This document shows, in pieces, positions 7,812-13,109 of a stretch of DNA of 13,109 nucleotides. Position numbers and translations under genes: made by a program. The notes below the pieces were generated by a model. The model did not search any database. It was not told the DNA's origin and worked only from the letters and a program-made list of their open reading frames with translations. This DNA is from Tupaia chinensis (Eukaryota): NCBI RefSeq assembly GCF_000334495.1, contig NW_006159661.1:881702-894810 (forward strand), in the 5' to 3' direction. Positions within the stretch are counted from its first letter, which is position 1. Each line of letters opens with the position of its first letter.

Positions 7812-7822
7812 GCTGAGTCAGC
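7812..7822. promoter_or_regulatory. Palindromic MARE/NF-E2-AP-1 type motif GCTGAGTCAGC
   Basis: The sequence ggctgagtcagcc contains the TGAGTCA TRE core flanked by GC, as in the Maf recognition element TGCTGA(G/C)TCAGCA. It sits in a locally GC-rich patch (7740-7880). It could occur by chance. Confidence 0.3.
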
Positions 7823-8674
7823 CCAGCTGGATCCCTGGAGAGGAGAGCAAAGGACAGAGGCCAGCAGGCCTGGCACCTAAAGCCTTTGGACTTCAGTTTT
7901 ACTTCTTATAAAGTAAAGGTGGTTAGTCTTAATTATTTTCAAGATTTCATCCAGACATGGAATTCAATCTCTTCAATGTCAGGTCTACAGTTTATCTCAA
8001 GAGTTGGAAGGTAGCTTCCTTCAGCCTTTAAACAGTAAACAACACACTACACCACAACCAGTTCACACTGCGTTTCTCTTTCTGCCCCCCAGGAGGCACA
8101 CTTAGTCACTCCAGTGTAGACACACAAGTGAGTCACGACAGTGTGCTTTTTGCAAACACACAATGCACTGTGACTCTTCTCCCGGTCTGAAGTCCTTTCT
8201 ATTTCAGTCTAATGGCTGTGTTCTCATAGAATATACTGCACAGAGTGAGGACATTGTCCTGACACGGACTGGACAATCCGCCAGCTCCCAGACTTGGAGA
8301 AGACTGGGCGGGGTGGCTGGCGCCTCCCATCGCAATTTCTCCCGCTTTCCCTCCTTGCCTCGCTGTCAATCTTCTCTGCTGACTCTAACCGAGACCTGTT
8401 CCAAAGGCATGATGTTTATCACACAGTTGTTTATGGGATTTGGAAATACCTGGGGGGTTAATAAAAAGGAAAATTTTCCACCATTTCCCTCAATGTCACT
8501 CTGTAGCTTTTTCTTCTGCTGACGAGGTAAGCACTTGACTTTCAAGCAGAAGGTACAATTTGCAAATATTCCCACAGTCATCCTGTAAAACACAAAAAAG
8601 TTTTATGTCATAGTTTTTAAGAACTCTTTTCTCAGGGAATATAGGTGAGAGTGAATTTAGAATTGTTCTATACA

Positions 8675-8897
8675 GGACCAGTAATTGGTGTAATGGTTAT
8701 ATCACTGGACTCCCATGTAGTCAACCACAGTTCAAGTCCCGGACCTGGTGGCTTAAACTCACGCCAGGTGCATGTGCATGTGTGCCCAAGATCCCGAGAA
8801 GAGAGTGGAGGAGAAGGGATTGTGGTGTGGCCGTCTCCCCTGGGGGTGGTTTCTGGCTTTCTGTCTCTCTATCACAAAAAAAAAAAAAAAAAAAAAA
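8675..8897 (+). mobile_element. Long-family SINE, intermediate age, with a 22-nt poly(A) and TSD
   Basis: The head reads ggaccagtaattggtgtaatggttatatcactggactcccatgtagtcaaccacagttcaagtcccggacctggtggcttaaactcacgccaggtgcatgtgcatgtgtgcccaagatcccgagaagagagtggaggagaagggattgtggtgtggccgtctcccc. A22 follows at 8876-8897. The TSD agaattgttcta(t)aca sits at 8659-8674 and 8897-8912. Confidence 0.9.
8876..8897. repeat. A22 homopolymer (SINE poly(A) tail)
   Basis: The A-run can be read directly. Confidence 0.95.
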
Positions 8898-8931
8898 GAA
8901 TTGTTCTACATGCAAACTGGGAAAATAGGGC

Positions 8932-9209
8932 ATTATTTTATTTTATTTTATTTTATTATTTTATTTTATTTTATTTTAGACAGAGATTTTTGCTATAGGG
9001 CTTGTGCTATAGGGGGGAGAGAGAGGGAGAGAGAGAGAGAGAGAGAGAGCCAGAAAGCAATAAATCACTCCCCAGGGGGGATGGCCATGCTGCAATCCCT
9101 TCTCCTCTATTTTCCTCTTGGGATTTTGGGCACATACGCACACATGGTATGAATGTTAAGCCAACGGGTGGGAATTTAGCGACACAGCCATTACACCATC
9201 TGTTGGTCC
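8932..9209 (-). mobile_element. Long-family SINE, old copy with an (ATTTT)n tail complement and an internal deletion in the head
   Basis: The (attttattttattttatt...) tract at 8934-8978 precedes gacagagatttttgctatagggcttgtgctatagggggga(ga)n...ggccatgctgcaatcccttctcc...gcacatacgcacacatggtatgaatgttaagccaacggg...gccattacaccatctgttggtcc. Confidence 0.75.
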
Positions 9210-9240
9210 TGGGCATTACTTTCTAAAAAGATATTTTTAG

Positions 9241-9376
9241 GACTGGCAGGTGGTGTGGTGGTTGAAAAGCTTAACTCCCACGTGGTTGACCATGGTTTGA
9301 GCCCCAAACCTGGAGGCTTGCTTTCTCACTTTCTCTCTCTGGTGAGCATACATGCCCTGCAGCAAATTTTAAAAAA
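9241..9376 (+). mobile_element. Short-family SINE
   Basis: The sequence runs ggactggcaggtggtgtggtggttgaaaagcttaactcccacgtggttgaccatggtttgagccccaaacctggaggcttgctttctcactttctctctctggtgagcatacatgccctgcagcaaattttaaaaaataatac. Confidence 0.85.
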
Positions 9377-9744
9377 TAATACAATTATATACCTAATTAA
9401 AAATGTATTTTAATCATTATCTTAGCAAAAATTGAACTACTCTAGCTTACAATGTGTTTCTAGCTGTTAGACCAATATGACATCAAAAATCTGTATGGGC
9501 TCATAATATACATATAATCTTGTCAATAATATGCATATTAATGAAACATGACAGACTTCAGTTACAGATCAAGTTTGTGGCTCAAGAACATAGAAGCATT
9601 TATTTCTAAATTAAAATGTAATATTATATAATAAATAAATAAGTAAATAATTCTTCTGTGAATTCAAAGACTCACTTTATGTGGATATTTGTGAAGCCCA
9701 TTCTGGAGAAAAATTGGACAACTAGTAATAAAAACATACAACTT

Positions 9745-9998
9745 GGGACCAGCAGTTAGCGTAATGGCTATGTCGCTGGACTCCCATGTAGCCAACCGTG
9801 GTTCAAGTCCCAGACCCGGTGGCTTAAACTCACGCCGCGCGCTTGTGCGTGCGTGTCCAAGATCCCGAGAGGAGAATGGAGAAGGGATTGCAGTGTGGCC
9901 ATCCCCCCTGGGAGGTGATTTCTCACTTTCTGTCTCTCTGTCTCTCTGTCTTTCTGGCAAGCACATGTGCCCTATAGCAAAAATCCCTCCAAAAAAAA
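9745..9998 (+). mobile_element. Long-family SINE, young CpG-intact copy with a TSD
   Basis: The sequence runs gggaccagcagttagcgtaatggctatgtcgctggactcccatgtagccaaccgtggttcaagtcccagacccggtggcttaaactcacgccgcgcgcttgtgcgtgcgtgtccaagatcccgagaggagaatggagaagggattgcagtgtggccatcccccc...gcaaaaatccctccaaaaaaaaa. The TSD atacaactt sits at 9736-9744 and 9999-10007. Confidence 0.9.
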
Positions 9999-10105
9999 AT
10001 ACAACTTATGTTTAAGTGAAATTTATATTTGTATTTATACAGTTGACGCTTGAACAATGCAGGAGTTGAGGACACCAAAATTCCCCACAAGTAAAAATCC
10101 ACATA

Positions 10106-10343
10106 TAACCTGTTTTTAGTTTGCTAGAGGGCACGTGAGCTGGCCAGAGAAAGAGAAACAGAGAGAGAAAAAGCAACCCCAGTGAGGCACAGCCATGCCA
10201 CAATCCCTTCTCCATTTCTCCATTTGGTTGGGAGTTTGGGTACACACACACACATGCACCCAGTGTGATTTTCCAGCCTCTGGGGCCAGGACTGGAGCCA
10301 TGTGGGAACCCAGCTACCATAACCACCAGGCCACAGCTGGCCC
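10106..10343 (-). mobile_element. Long-family SINE, old copy
   Basis: The sequence runs tttttagtttgctagagggcacgtgagctggccagag...cacagccatgccacaatcccttctcc...ggtacacacacacacatgcacccagtgtgattttccagcctctgggg...ccaccaggccacagctggccc. Confidence 0.8.
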
Positions 10344-10616
10344 TGAATATAACTTTTAATCCCCCCCAAACTTAACTGCTAATAGCTTACTGTTGACTAA
10401 GCCTCACCTATGACATAAACAACTGATTAGCCCATATTTGTATGCTATATGTATATGTATCATGTACTGTTTCCTTACCACAAAGTAAGCTAGAGAAAGC
10501 AAATGCTATTCAGCAAATCATAAGGAAGAGAAAATACATTTACAATATTTACTGAAAAAAATCCACCTATACATAGGCCCACGCAGTTCAACCTGGTGTT
10601 GTTCAAGAGTCAAATG

Positions 10617-10618
<2 letters not shown>

Positions 10619-10656
<38 letters not shown>
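10619..10656. repeat. (CA)19 microsatellite
   Basis: The sequence cacacacacacacacacacacacacacacacacacaca can be read directly. Confidence 0.95.
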
Positions 10657-10657
<1 letters not shown>

Positions 10658-10667
10658 TAGAATGCAT

Positions 10668-10915
10668 TTGAAGCTGGCTCTGTGGCCTGATGGTTGAGGC
10701 AGTCTGATCCCACATGGCCCCATGGGGTAGTTAACCTCTCAGACCCAGAGTGAGTGAGGCCACATGACGGCATGCGTGCACATGAATCCCAAAATCCCAG
10801 AAGGAGGGACAAATGGAGAAGGGATCACAGAGTTACCACTCTCCATGGGGAGGGCTTCCACCTCTCCCTCTGTCTCTCTTTGACAAGCAAACGCACTCCC
10901 TAGCTAAAAACAAGA
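10668..10915 (+). mobile_element. Long-family SINE, old diverged copy
   Basis: The sequence runs ggctctgtggcctgatggttgaggcagtctgatcccacatggccccatgggg...ggcatgcgtgcacatgaatcccaaaatcccagaaggagggacaaatggagaagggatcacagag...ctccctctgtctctctttgacaagcaaacgcactccctagctaaaaacaagag. Confidence 0.75.
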
Positions 10916-11879
10916 GAATGAATTTGAAATTAATGTAATTTTTATTATACCATACATTCTCGCATATGGTAAATAAATACTTTTCAGAATGATAAGCATA
11001 TTTTGAATTAAAAGTATTTAACAATGAACTAACAAATGATGAGATAGGGAAATTAATCCCCAGTAGCTATTTGTCAGTTTTAAAAACCATAGTCACATCT
11101 AGCAGCTTCCTCAGAATAAGCTGCCCAGGTCCAATGCTGACTGAGGAGCAGGACAGACTCGGGTCGCACACTGCCCACCTACTTTCCATAGCCAGCGCCC
11201 GAGGTCTGCAGGGGAGCCTCGGGGGTCCTGAGAACGCAGGGCTAAACCAGGTATCGGAGCCTCGTTTCCTCTCCGCCCTGCCTGAGCTGAGATATCCCAC
11301 TCTTCCAGGCCTGAGGCTCGAGTCTTTCTTGTCCTTTCACCCTGTGGGTAATAGGTAGTGGCACCAGATTGCAGACACAATGCCACTGCCTCACTGACAC
11401 CTCACCAAATTTCACCTGCACCTCAGTCATGCAACGTTCCCACCTAGGCCTCAGCATTTCCTCTTGGAAGGTGATGGCTGCTGCCCAGCCTTCCTCGACC
11501 GCCCTGCAGACTATCCTTTATTCCCTAAGCCCTGCGGCCAGCGGCATCTTGGGCCATTACTGCACCTAAATACAACAATCTGTCCCACTGACGCTCTGGC
11601 TCAGGTGCCCCTCAGCAGGCTCCTGACTCTTTGCCCGCTTCTGCCCATCCCTGCCTCTAGTCTTCTCCACATTGTAGCTTGAGTATCACGTTTTTGGGAA
11701 AAAAATATATTTCAAAACAAACAGTGTCCTTATTAAAGCGTTCTCTAAATACAGAGTTCACAGGCATTCTCCACATGCTGATTATGTATGGAGAGAATTC
11801 GGCAGACATCAGGCTTGCGCTGGTTATACTCCAAGGCAAATCTGCGCAGGTCATTTCAGCCTGTCTTCCTGCCTAGCTC

Positions 11880-12135
11880 TTTCCCAAAACGACGCGTACC
11901 GAGTGTCTTCCATCCAAAGACAACCGGGCGCACTCAGCACTCCCGGCTGCTCTAGAAACGGTCAGAGCAAGCGGCTTCCTGCCCCACAGGTCCAGGTCCG
12001 TCAGGGGCGTTTCCCCCTCCTGGCGAGCTCCGGTGTCTCGCTCCTTCCAGGTCGTCCCGGAGCCCTCCTCTGATTGGCTTCCCTGTTTCGATCACACACC
12101 CGCTCTGCGATCATTGGCTGTTCTCCACCCTTTAA
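11880..12135 (-). promoter_or_regulatory. CpG-rich core promoter candidate with two NF-Y-type CCAAT boxes 40 bp apart
   Basis: On the + strand, ctgATTGGct sits at 12071-12079 and gatcATTGGctg at 12109-12120. On the minus strand these read aagCCAATcag and cagCCAATgat, which fit the RRCCAATSR consensus. They are surrounded by CpG-dense sequence (gacgcgtaccgag, ccgggcgcac, ggcgagctccgg) and a GC-box-like ggggcg. No TATA box is present. Confidence 0.5.
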
Positions 12136-12479
12136 CCACAACTTTTTCAGGAAGGCCACCCTGGGCGAAAGGCTGTGCCTAGTTTATGTTAATACACCTA
12201 GAATTCAGATCTCTTTTGATAAACAAGCATTAAAAAATGCTTAGTTACCAAAAACTCCTTCACACATGGATTAAACCCAGGGTTATAAAAAACCTTATTT
12301 ACATATTTGTACCCAAATGACATCCATAACGCACCTCCCTAACGGGATTATTAAACCCCTACAAAGCAGTTGGTTCCACTCCTGCCCCGGGGCAAGTCAT
12401 AGATAATGGAAGAATTTGCAACACATAAACTTTCAGAGTGAATTTATCCTTTATCATAACGCCACGTTTGGAATATTGT

Positions 12480-13109
12480 TGTAAATTTACTGTCTTTTAG
12501 CAGCCCAGAACCGAAAGCGTGAGCGACTATTTAGCTGCGCCGCGGTTTTCTACAAATCAGGATCTGGCGTCTCGGTTCTCTGGAAACCATCGGCCTTCCC
12601 CCTCATAACTTGCAGATTGACAATTTTGTGTGCTTGCTCAACAAGCACATCGTTTCTATCATTGTGATCCGATTACGACTTCAGGTTTCATTTCCTGATT
12701 CACCACCTCCGTCCTTTTGCACAAGAGTCCTAACTTTCAGAAAGAGGACAGGTAGTTTCGCACGTTGGAAACAAGCAGCACGCATCTACTGCGATCTTTG
12801 ATTCCCCAGAGGGCGAGAGAGATGCGGACACCGGAATCCGAGTGCCGGCTCCTATCTGCGCCTCAGCCCAGGTGTCAGGTCACAGGGAAGGCGCCGAGGC
12901 GCAGAGCCGCACTCCCGCTCCGACCTCGCTGCCACCTACAGCAGCTGACTGGCCAAGGACAACTGCGCGACCACTACAGCGAAGGCGCGGTGCAGAGCGT
13001 GTAGGTCACCTCCCGGCAACTACCAGGACCCTCGGCGGGGACTCGCCTGGGAGAGGAACTGCCAGCCACCCTGCGGCGCCCACGCACCTGCCAGAGGATC
13101 CGGCCGGCT
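12480..13109. promoter_or_regulatory. CpG island that continues beyond the window end; probable 5' region or first exon of a gene
   Basis: CpGs are dense throughout (gcgccgcgg, gcgtctcgg, gccgaggcgcagagccgcactcccgctccgacctcgc, gcgcgaccactacagcgaaggcgcgg, cggcggggactcgcc, ggatccggccggct). There are no SINEs. The ORFs here (e.g. 12765-13004) are Arg/Pro-rich compositional artefacts. Confidence 0.55.

What the first reader, a model, noticed from the sequence alone, without database searches (positions are those of the whole stretch)
11070..13109. SINE-free CpG-island block with twin CCAAT boxes: probable promoter, possibly of a minus-strand gene
The last 2 kb contrasts sharply with the rest of the window. 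It contains no SINE copies (against ~45% SINE content upstream), is GC-rich, and has dense CpG in two sub-blocks (11.88-12.13 kb and 12.48-13.11 kb). An AT-richer 300-bp spacer lies between them.

Two CCAAT boxes matching the NF-Y consensus sit 40 bp apart (12073-12077 and 12113-12117, reading CCAAT on the minus strand). There is no TATA box. This is the classic architecture of TATA-less housekeeping or cell-cycle promoters. Multiple CCAAT boxes are characteristic of G2/M genes, although no CDE/CHR element is evident here.

Repeat depletion itself is a hallmark of promoter CpG islands. Direction of transcription cannot be fixed from sequence alone, and it could be bidirectional.
Basis: partly seen in the sequence, partly recalled or inferred. 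Interest (0 to 1): 0.55.

Follow-up and report, generated by a model that had tools for sequence, protein, structure and literature searches.

The report
PARP4 promoter CpG island, intron side
The last 2 kb of the window is the start of intron 1 of the vault-particle gene PARP4 on the minus strand, including the downstream half of its ordinary CpG-island promoter; the two CCAAT boxes lie about 1 kb inside the intron and are poorly conserved, so they are not the core promoter.

Summary
Region 11070-13109 has no SINE and two CpG-rich sub-blocks separated by an AT-rich spacer. Two consensus NF-Y sites lie at 12071-12079 and 12111-12119 on the minus strand.

The window carries the 5' end of PARP4 on the minus strand:
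- exon 4: 482-548
- exon 3: 6534-6735
- exon 2 with the ATG: 8450-8582
- last 22 nt of non-coding exon 1: 13088-13109, with donor CAG|GTGCGT

A spliced transcript contig and the lemur, bat and degu loci support that donor. The transcription start and core promoter therefore lie beyond the right end of the window. Block 12494-13109 is the intronic shoulder of the PARP4 promoter CpG island.

The twin CCAAT boxes lie about 1 kb downstream of exon 1, in intron 1. Box 2 is kept only in lemur (bat has CCAGT, capuchin a deletion). Box 1 is kept in none. Orthologous core promoters have Sp1 and ETS sites and no CCAAT box.

The CCAAT block keeps CpGs (o/e 0.69) that have decayed in the orthologues (0.07-0.35). 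A lineage-specific intronic regulatory element or alternative promoter is therefore possible but unproven.

This is an ordinary, essentially known kind of feature.

The parts
13088..13109 (-). Last 22 nt of PARP4 non-coding exon 1 (AGCCGGCCGGATCCTCTGGCAG). The exon and the transcription start continue beyond the window end.
   Evidence: A spliced transcript contig (L001) reads ...GGATCCTCTGGCAG|GATG, joining this sequence to exon 2. The same exon end and donor are present in lemur, bat and degu genomic loci.
13086..13087 (-). GT of the exon 1 splice donor (CAG|GTGCGT)
   Evidence: Sequence read. The donor is conserved as CAG|GTGCGT in bat and degu and CAG|GTGCGC in lemur.
8583..13087 (-). PARP4 intron 1 (4505 nt). 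The whole finding except its last 22 nt lies inside it.
   Evidence: Its bounds are the donor at 13087 and the acceptor ttttacag at 8583-8590. It is colinear with intron 1 of bat, capuchin and lemur.
12494..13109 (.). Downstream (intronic) part of the PARP4 promoter CpG island, cut by the window end
   Evidence: This is the only Takai-Jones island in the window: GC 58%, o/e 0.88, 45 CpG. It is orthologous to the lemur island L011 4300-5300, which spans exon 1. It contains no Sp1, ETS or NRF1 motifs, as expected for sequence downstream of the transcription start.
12235..12535 (.). AT-rich 'spacer'. This is the best-conserved part of the block.
   Evidence: Identity is 72-80% to lemur, capuchin and bat in 50-bp windows, higher than the CCAAT interval. 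GC is 38% and CpG o/e 0.48 over 12131-12479.
11880..12130 (.). Small CpG-rich block inside intron 1 that holds both CCAAT boxes
   Evidence: GC 61.8%, 19 CpG, o/e 0.84. It passes only the lenient island criteria, as 11736-12230. Over the aligned segment 11760-12200 the window has o/e 0.69, against 0.28, 0.35 and 0.07 in lemur, capuchin and bat. About half of the window's CpGs there are TG or CA in those species.
12111..12119 (-). CCAAT box 2 (AGCCAATGA), about 0.97 kb downstream of the exon 1 donor
   Evidence: Lemur keeps ACAGCCAATGATTG, bat has ACAGCCAGTGATTG, and capuchin has a deletion.
12071..12079 (-). CCAAT box 1 (AGCCAATCA), about 1.01 kb downstream of the exon 1 donor
   Evidence: No orthologue keeps a CCAAT here: lemur GGCCCAAATC, capuchin GGAAGCCACCTGA, bat and degu not alignable.
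11070..11700 (.). GC-rich but CpG-depleted ordinary intronic DNA. It is not part of the island.
   Evidence: GC 55.3%, o/e 0.39. Parts align to bat and capuchin intron 1.
8450..8582 (-). PARP4 exon 2 with the start codon (ATG at 8579-8581), encoding MTVGIFANC...LLTPQ
   Evidence: ORF and splice sites read. The peptide has PARP4 hits and a BRCT domain. It aligns to transcript contigs and to degu.
6534..6735 (-). PARP4 exon 3 (CTHMILDNADVL...DQKTSSS), the rest of the BRCT domain
482..548 (-). PARP4 exon 4 (EVKTDSPSPDSDAEKENIMELS)
   Evidence: ORF. Aligns to transcript contig L001 424-547. Splice sites read.

Best explanation
The finding is the 5'-most 2 kb of intron 1 of PARP4 (vault poly(ADP-ribose) polymerase), transcribed on the minus strand, plus the last 22 nt of its non-coding exon 1 at the window edge.

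Block 12.49-13.11 kb is the downstream half of an ordinary TATA-less promoter CpG island. Its transcription start and core elements lie just beyond the window. In orthologues those elements are Sp1 GC boxes and ETS sites, with no CCAAT.

Lack of SINEs and retention of CpG are the usual marks of a germline-unmethylated promoter-proximal domain.

The two CCAAT boxes are intronic, about +1 kb from exon 1, and mostly lineage-specific. They are not the core promoter and are most likely of little or no function. At most they form a minor lineage-specific intronic regulatory site.

Shown:
- gene identity and exon/intron structure
- island statistics
- position of the boxes
- conservation pattern

Inferred:
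- transcription start position
- methylation state
- lack of function of the boxes
For: **Gene identity**
- The exon 2+3 peptide hits PARP4 proteins (E 7e-48).
- It has a BRCT domain.

**Exon 1**
- Spliced contigs L001-L004 join ...GGATCCTCTGGCAG to exon 2, and that sequence is window 13109-13088.
- The donor CAG|GTGCG(T/C) is conserved in degu, bat and lemur.
- Intron 1 is colinear with bat, capuchin and lemur.

**CpG island**
- The Takai-Jones island is 12494-13109 only.
- The lemur island spans about 430 bp upstream to about 570 bp downstream of the donor.

**Core promoters and the boxes**
- Orthologous core promoters have Sp1 and CGGAAG motifs and no CCAAT or TATA within -600 of the donor.
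- Window 12.49-13.11 kb has none of these motifs.
- The CCAAT boxes are not conserved, apart from box 2 in lemur.
- The CCAAT interval is less conserved than the neighbouring spacer.
Against: - No transcript, CAGE or methylation data exist for this unidentified species, so exon 1 and the transcription start are inferred from orthologues.
- A pair of full NF-Y consensus 9-mers within 50 bp is rare in shuffles (0.05-0.8%).
- The block around the boxes retains CpG (o/e 0.69) where lemur, capuchin and bat have lost it (0.07-0.35). That hints at lineage-specific protection from methylation and so at some activity.
- Box 2 is shared with lemur.
Confidence: 0.8

Rival explanations
1. The CpG-rich twin-CCAAT block (11.88-12.13 kb) is a lineage-specific, NF-Y-bound alternative promoter or enhancer inside PARP4 intron 1. 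NF-Y binding would keep it unmethylated. Transcripts could start near 12000 (minus strand), use the GT at 11900-11899 (CTCG|GTACGC) and splice to exon 2.
For: - Both boxes are perfect RRCCAATSR matches in the gene's orientation, and such a pair is rare in shuffles.
- CpG o/e is 0.69 here against 0.07-0.35 in the orthologous blocks. About 12 of 23 CpGs are TG or CA elsewhere.
- A GT lies at the same alignment column in capuchin and lemur.
- The ATG at ...GGATGGAAGACACTCG would be in frame with the exon 2 ATG (read).
Against: - There is no transcript evidence. The transcript contigs that reach beyond the start codon carry short 5' leaders spliced directly onto exon 2. The one that can be matched to the window (L001) uses the exon 1 at the window edge.
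- Box 1 is not conserved in any orthologue and box 2 only in lemur.
- The block passes only lenient island criteria, no better than young SINE copies.
- It has no Sp1, ETS or NRF1 sites.
- The candidate donor is weak.
Confidence: 0.15
2. One reading: the twin CCAAT boxes are the core of the main TATA-less promoter (housekeeping or G2/M type). That promoter would drive a minus-strand or bidirectional transcript starting next to them.
For: The CCAAT pair, the CpG-rich context and the absence of a well-placed TATA are real.
Against: - The gene's exon 1 lies 1 kb upstream of the boxes, at 13088 and beyond.
- Orthologous core promoters lack CCAAT.
- There is no CHR or CDE.
- The spacing is 40 bp, not the roughly 32-33 bp I recall for cell-cycle promoters (own knowledge).
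- The boxes are not conserved.
Confidence: 0.03
3. The island is a bidirectional promoter shared with a plus-strand neighbour gene beyond the window.
For: CpG-island promoters are often bidirectional (PMC1802594 gives about 10% of genes). The window ends inside the island, so the far side is unseen.
Against: - No gene is called upstream of PARP4 exon 1 in the stretch held for each locus. That is 7.1 kb in degu (with assembly gaps), 6.1 kb in bat (with an assembly gap) and 4.7 kb in lemur.
- MPHOSPH8 lies beyond the 3' end of PARP4 on the same strand, not head-to-head.
Confidence: 0.05

Closest known systems
PARP4 (vault PARP) 5' end and promoter CpG island, as seen in the fetched loci of Lemur catta, Miniopterus natalensis, Octodon degus and Cebus imitator
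   Same: - Same gene and same exon 2-4 coding sequence (about 75-84% amino-acid identity).
- Same non-coding exon 1 end and donor.
- A CpG island straddles exon 1 and extends about 0.5-0.6 kb into intron 1.
- Intron 1 is colinear.
   Different: - The species is not identified. No PARP4 protein retrieved exceeds 84% identity over the first 111 residues.
- Intron 1 here carries extra lineage-specific SINEs.
- An additional CpG-retaining block with two consensus CCAAT boxes lies at about +1 kb. It is CpG-poor in the other species.
NF-Y-dependent TATA-less promoters with multiple CCAAT boxes (for example the Mrps12/Sarsm bidirectional promoter, PMC1802594, and cell-cycle G2/M promoters)
   Same: Two consensus NF-Y sites lie close together in one orientation, in GC- and CpG-rich DNA without a nearby TATA.
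   Different: - The sites lie about 1 kb downstream of the gene's first exon, not within about 100 bp upstream of a start site.
- They are not conserved between species, whereas the functional arrays in PMC1802594 are conserved between mouse and human.
- There is no CHR or CDE, and no accompanying Sp1 or NRF-2/ETS sites.

Membership tests
Promoter CpG island | At least 500 bp with GC >= 55% and CpG o/e >= 0.65 (Takai-Jones) | tested here: met
   12494-13109: 616 bp, GC 58%, o/e 0.88, truncated by the window end. The criterion is not met for 11070-12493.
Promoter CpG island | Overlaps the 5' end (first exon or transcription start) of a gene | tested here: met
   The end of exon 1 of PARP4 lies at 13088-13109. 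This rests on a spliced contig and a donor conserved in three genomes. The transcription start itself is outside the window.
Promoter CpG island | Unmethylated in germline, with H3K4me3 and transcription start signal | not testable with these tools
   No epigenomic or CAGE data are available. The only indirect evidence is CpG retention.
NF-Y / CCAAT-box core promoter | CCAAT pentanucleotide with NF-Y flanks (RRCCAATSR) | tested here: met
   AGCCAATCA at 12071-12079 and AGCCAATGA at 12111-12119, both on the minus strand.
NF-Y / CCAAT-box core promoter | Box located about 60-100 bp upstream of the transcription start (established knowledge) | tested here: not met
   The boxes are 0.97-1.02 kb downstream of the exon 1 donor of the only supported first exon. 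No transcript start is known near them.
NF-Y / CCAAT-box core promoter | Conservation of the boxes in orthologous promoters | tested here: not met
   Box 1 is absent in lemur, capuchin, bat and degu. Box 2 is present only in lemur. The core promoters of lemur, degu and bat have no CCAAT.
G2/M cell-cycle promoter (CCAAT plus CDE/CHR) | CHR (TTYGAA), with or without CDE, shortly downstream of the CCAAT boxes | tested here: not met
   The only TTYGAA match in 11070-13109 is at 11711-11716, about 360 bp from box 1.
PARP4 gene | N-terminal BRCT domain encoded by the first coding exons, with best hits to PARP4 orthologues | tested here: met
   Pfam BRCT E 8.9e-15. PARP4 hits. Identity over the first 111 residues is about 75-84% to mammalian PARP4.

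The most novel reading that the evidence does not exclude
In this unidentified mammalian lineage, an ancestral stretch of PARP4 intron 1 may have become a germline-unmethylated, NF-Y-bound alternative promoter or enhancer. The lineage holds two consensus NF-Y sites in this stretch, one of them shared only with lemur. The stretch is CpG-poor in lemur, capuchin and bat but keeps its CpGs here. This would be a small example of regulatory turnover by motif gain next to an existing CpG island.
Probability: 0.13. Interest if true: 0.3.

Novelty: already known. Interest (0 to 1): 0.15.

Why it matters
The result matters mainly as annotation. It places the window at the 5' end of PARP4 and fixes the gene's strand and first four exons. 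It also shows that the CpG island at the window edge is the ordinary PARP4 promoter island. The eye-catching twin CCAAT boxes are intronic and evolutionarily unstable. If the minority reading were true, it would be a modest example of lineage-specific birth of an NF-Y-dependent element. It would not open or settle any long-standing question.

Tried and rejected
- **Rfam and tRNA scans.** Rfam found nothing at gathering thresholds over the whole window, or at E<=1 over 11000-13109. ARAGORN found no tRNA.
- **First protein search.** The 111-aa peptide returned only short or partial PARP4 entries. A second search with a longer human-like PARP4 query, written from memory and used only as bait, was needed.
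- **Locus look-ups that gave nothing.** P0005 and P0024 are not on record. The cat and star-nosed mole gene ranges exceed 100 kb, so no DNA was returned. Contigs for P0007 and P0008 reach only 0.3-0.8 kb upstream of the ATG.
- **Degu.** No detectable similarity to window 11100-13040 beyond the donor. Local alignment scores fall within shuffles.
- **Bat.** The 12100-11740 segment alone does not align above shuffles. It is placed only by the four-way alignment.
- **Species identification failed.** The SINE k-mers are absent from the paper library. No PARP4 protein retrieved exceeds 84% identity.
- **Literature.** No dedicated study of the PARP4 promoter turned up.
- **Lineage-specific insertion or LTR.** I considered this for the CCAAT block and rejected it, because the block aligns to lemur and capuchin intron 1.
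- **Head-to-head promoter with MPHOSPH8.** I considered this and rejected it, because MPHOSPH8 lies beyond the 3' end of PARP4 in bat and lemur.

Full report
**1. Observation**

- Reading 10800-13109 confirms ATTGG at 12073-12077 and 12113-12117. On the minus strand these read AGCCAATCAG and AGCCAATGAT. Both match the NF-Y consensus RRCCAATSR.
- Composition in 200-bp windows and over defined intervals:

| Interval | GC | CpG o/e | CpG count |
|---|---|---|---|
| 11070-11700 | 55% | 0.39 | 18 |
| 11880-12130 | 61.8% | 0.84 | 19 |
| 12131-12479 | 38.4% | 0.48 | 6 |
| 12480-13109 | 57.1% | 0.88 | 45 |

- The two CpG sub-blocks and the AT-rich spacer are therefore real. The first 630 bp of the finding is not island.
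- Under Takai-Jones criteria only 12494-13109 qualifies, and it is cut by the window end.
- Under Gardiner-Garden criteria 11736-12230 also qualifies, but so do four young SINE copies elsewhere in the window.
- BLAST of two representative SINE copies against the window finds no copy beyond 10879. An even longer SINE-free stretch exists at 6252-8674. My conservative estimate of SINE content upstream is 32%.
- A same-strand pair of bare CCAAT within 50 bp is unremarkable, occurring in 17% of shuffles of the block. A pair of full 9-mer matches is rare: 0.05% of block shuffles and 0.8% of whole-window shuffles.

**2. What the locus is**

- Stop-free stretches on the minus strand contain MTVGIFANCTFCLKVKCLPRQQKKKLQSDIEGNGGKFSFLLTPQ and CTHMILDNADVL...DQKTSSS. 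Both are flanked by splice signals.
- The joined peptide hits PARP4 proteins and has a BRCT domain.
- The exons on the minus strand are:
  - exon 2: 8450-8582, ATG at 8579-8581, preceded by the acceptor ttttacag
  - exon 3: 6534-6735
  - exon 4: 482-548
- Exon 2 begins with an acceptor one base before the ATG. A non-coding exon 1 must therefore lie upstream, at higher coordinates.

**3. Where exon 1 is**

- Four spliced transcript-like contigs (L001-L004) carry a 5' leader ending ...GGATCCTCTGGCAG, joined directly to G ATG of exon 2. They are probably pig, judged from a PRE-1-like SINE in the 3' part; that is my own knowledge.
- The minus strand of window 13109-13088 reads AGCCGGCCGGATCCTCTGGCAG, followed by GTGCGTGG.
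- The same exon end and donor occur in genomic PARP4 loci:
  - degu L006 about 7123: CTCCAGCAG|GTGCGTGG
  - Miniopterus L009 about 6141: GAATCCTCTGGCAG|GTGCGTGG
  - Lemur catta L011 about 4733: GGATCCTCAGCAG|GTGCGCGG
- Exon 1 therefore ends at 13088. Intron 1 is 8583-13087.
- The transcription start lies beyond the window. The L001-L004 leaders run 78-90 nt before the start codon, and only 22 nt of the equivalent leader fall inside the window.
- In lemur the island runs from about 430 bp upstream to about 570 bp downstream of the donor. The window's Takai-Jones island reaches 594 bp downstream of the donor (13088 to 12494), a close match.
- Block 12.49-13.11 kb is thus the intronic shoulder of the PARP4 promoter island.

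**4. The core promoter in orthologues**

- Within 600 bp upstream of the donor, lemur, degu and bat have Sp1 GC boxes (about -92 to -224) and ETS cores CGGAAG (about -59 to -253).
- None has a CCAAT or TATA there. The bat sequence has an assembly gap.
- The in-window part of the island has no Sp1, ETS, NRF1, E2F, YY1 or CRE motifs. This is consistent with sequence downstream of the start site.

**5. The twin CCAAT boxes**

- They lie 0.97-1.02 kb downstream of the exon 1 donor, in intron 1.
- Intron 1 is colinear with bat, capuchin and lemur. The CCAAT block is ancestral intronic DNA, not an insertion.
- Box 2, window ACAGCCAATGATCG:
  - lemur ACAGCCAATGATTG (kept)
  - bat ACAGCCAGTGATTG (lost or never present)
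  - capuchin deleted
- Box 1, window GGAAGCCAATCAG:
  - lemur GGCCCAAATC
  - capuchin GGAAGCCACCTGA
  - bat and degu not alignable
- Capuchin has its own CCAAT (L010 1083) where lemur has GCAGT. CCAAT motifs therefore come and go in this stretch.
- In a four-species alignment the CCAAT interval (12134-12060) is among the less conserved segments. The AT-rich spacer (12235-12535) is the best conserved, at 72-80% identity in all three comparisons.

**6. A residual signal**

- Over the aligned block 11760-12200 the window has 23 CpGs (o/e 0.69). Lemur has 8 (0.28), capuchin 9 (0.35) and bat 2 (0.07).
- At about 12 of the 23 window CpG positions the other species have TG or CA, the products of methyl-CpG decay.
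- The neighbouring 11070-11700 is CpG-depleted in this species too, so the effect is local.
- This is compatible with the block being protected from germline methylation in this lineage. The block could be an extended edge of the promoter's unmethylated domain or a lineage-specific regulatory element. GC-biased processes could also explain it.
- A GT at 11900-11899 (CTCG|GTACGC) lies 170 nt downstream of box 1, at a column that is also GT in capuchin and lemur. The ATG in GGATGGAAGACACTCG would be in frame with the exon 2 ATG.
- That is the only sequence hint of an alternative first exon. There is no transcript evidence for it.

**7. Neighbours**

- No gene is called upstream of PARP4 exon 1 in the stretch held for degu (7.1 kb), bat (6.1 kb) or lemur (4.7 kb).
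- MPHOSPH8 (chromo plus ankyrin domains) follows the 3' end of PARP4 in bat and lemur.
- A protein-coding bidirectional partner is therefore unlikely. A divergent non-coding transcript cannot be excluded.

**8. Comparison with known systems and verdict**

- The structure works like, and is, a standard mammalian CpG-island promoter region of a known gene.
- It resembles NF-Y multi-CCAAT promoters (for example PMC1802594) only in having two good motifs in GC-rich DNA.
- It fails the positional and conservation criteria for such promoters and lacks CHR and CDE.
- No Rfam family or tRNA lies in the block.
- The library holds no dedicated study of the PARP4 promoter.
Its interpretation is right about a minus-strand promoter island continuing into a first exon at the window edge. 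It is wrong about the CCAAT boxes being the architecture of that promoter.
- The feature is ordinary. Interest is low.

Noticed in passing
window 12235-12535: The AT-rich 'spacer' is the most conserved part of the region, at 72-80% identity to lemur, capuchin and bat. One example is GGGGTTTAATAATCCCGTTAGGGAGGTGCG...CATTTGGGTACAAATATG. It may be a conserved intronic regulatory element of PARP4. It is absent or undetectable in degu.
   Followed up: partly
window 11885-11925 (minus strand): GGATGGAAGACACTCG|GTACGC carries an ATG in frame with the exon 2 start codon, followed by a GT that is also GT in capuchin and lemur. It is a possible but unsupported alternative first-exon end downstream of the CCAAT boxes.
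   Followed up: partly
window ~4600-5700 (minus strand): A processed-pseudogene-like copy of a BTF3/NAC-domain gene lies in PARP4 intron 3 (Pfam NAC E 5.6e-19). It is split by about 300 bp that includes a (GT)n microsatellite at about 5140-5205.
   Followed up: partly
window 2081-2903: Three consecutive same-orientation SINE copies are each bordered by the same short flank (A)ACTGCTTGATTTTT, at 2081-2100, 2331-2350, 2609-2630 and 2888-2903. This looks like tandem duplication of SINE plus flank, or repeated insertion at one site.
   Followed up: no
window-wide, e.g. 741-997, 2354-2888, 5762-6018, 9745-9995: A young tRNA-like SINE family starts GGGACCAGCAGTTAGCGTAATGGCTATG and its copies are about 85-87% alike and CpG-rich. 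A second related family ends in ...TCTCTGGTCAAATTTAAA. I could not assign either to a named family or species, and their k-mers are absent from the paper library.
   Followed up: partly
window 7560-7651 and 7743-8034: Two segments of PARP4 intron 2 align to degu at 68-74%. The first has a plus-strand GACAG|GTAAGTGAG donor-like site and locally raised CpG (o/e 0.81 in 7501-7700).
   Followed up: no
window 12284-12289 (+): A TATAAA lies in the spacer, about 170 bp from the nearer ATTGG. It is not conserved in bat or capuchin and is probably chance in AT-rich DNA.
   Followed up: partly
L010 (Cebus) 60-160: The capuchin PARP4 island contains a tandem array of GGGGTGGGCGC units just inside intron 1. 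The window, lemur and bat lack it.
   Followed up: no
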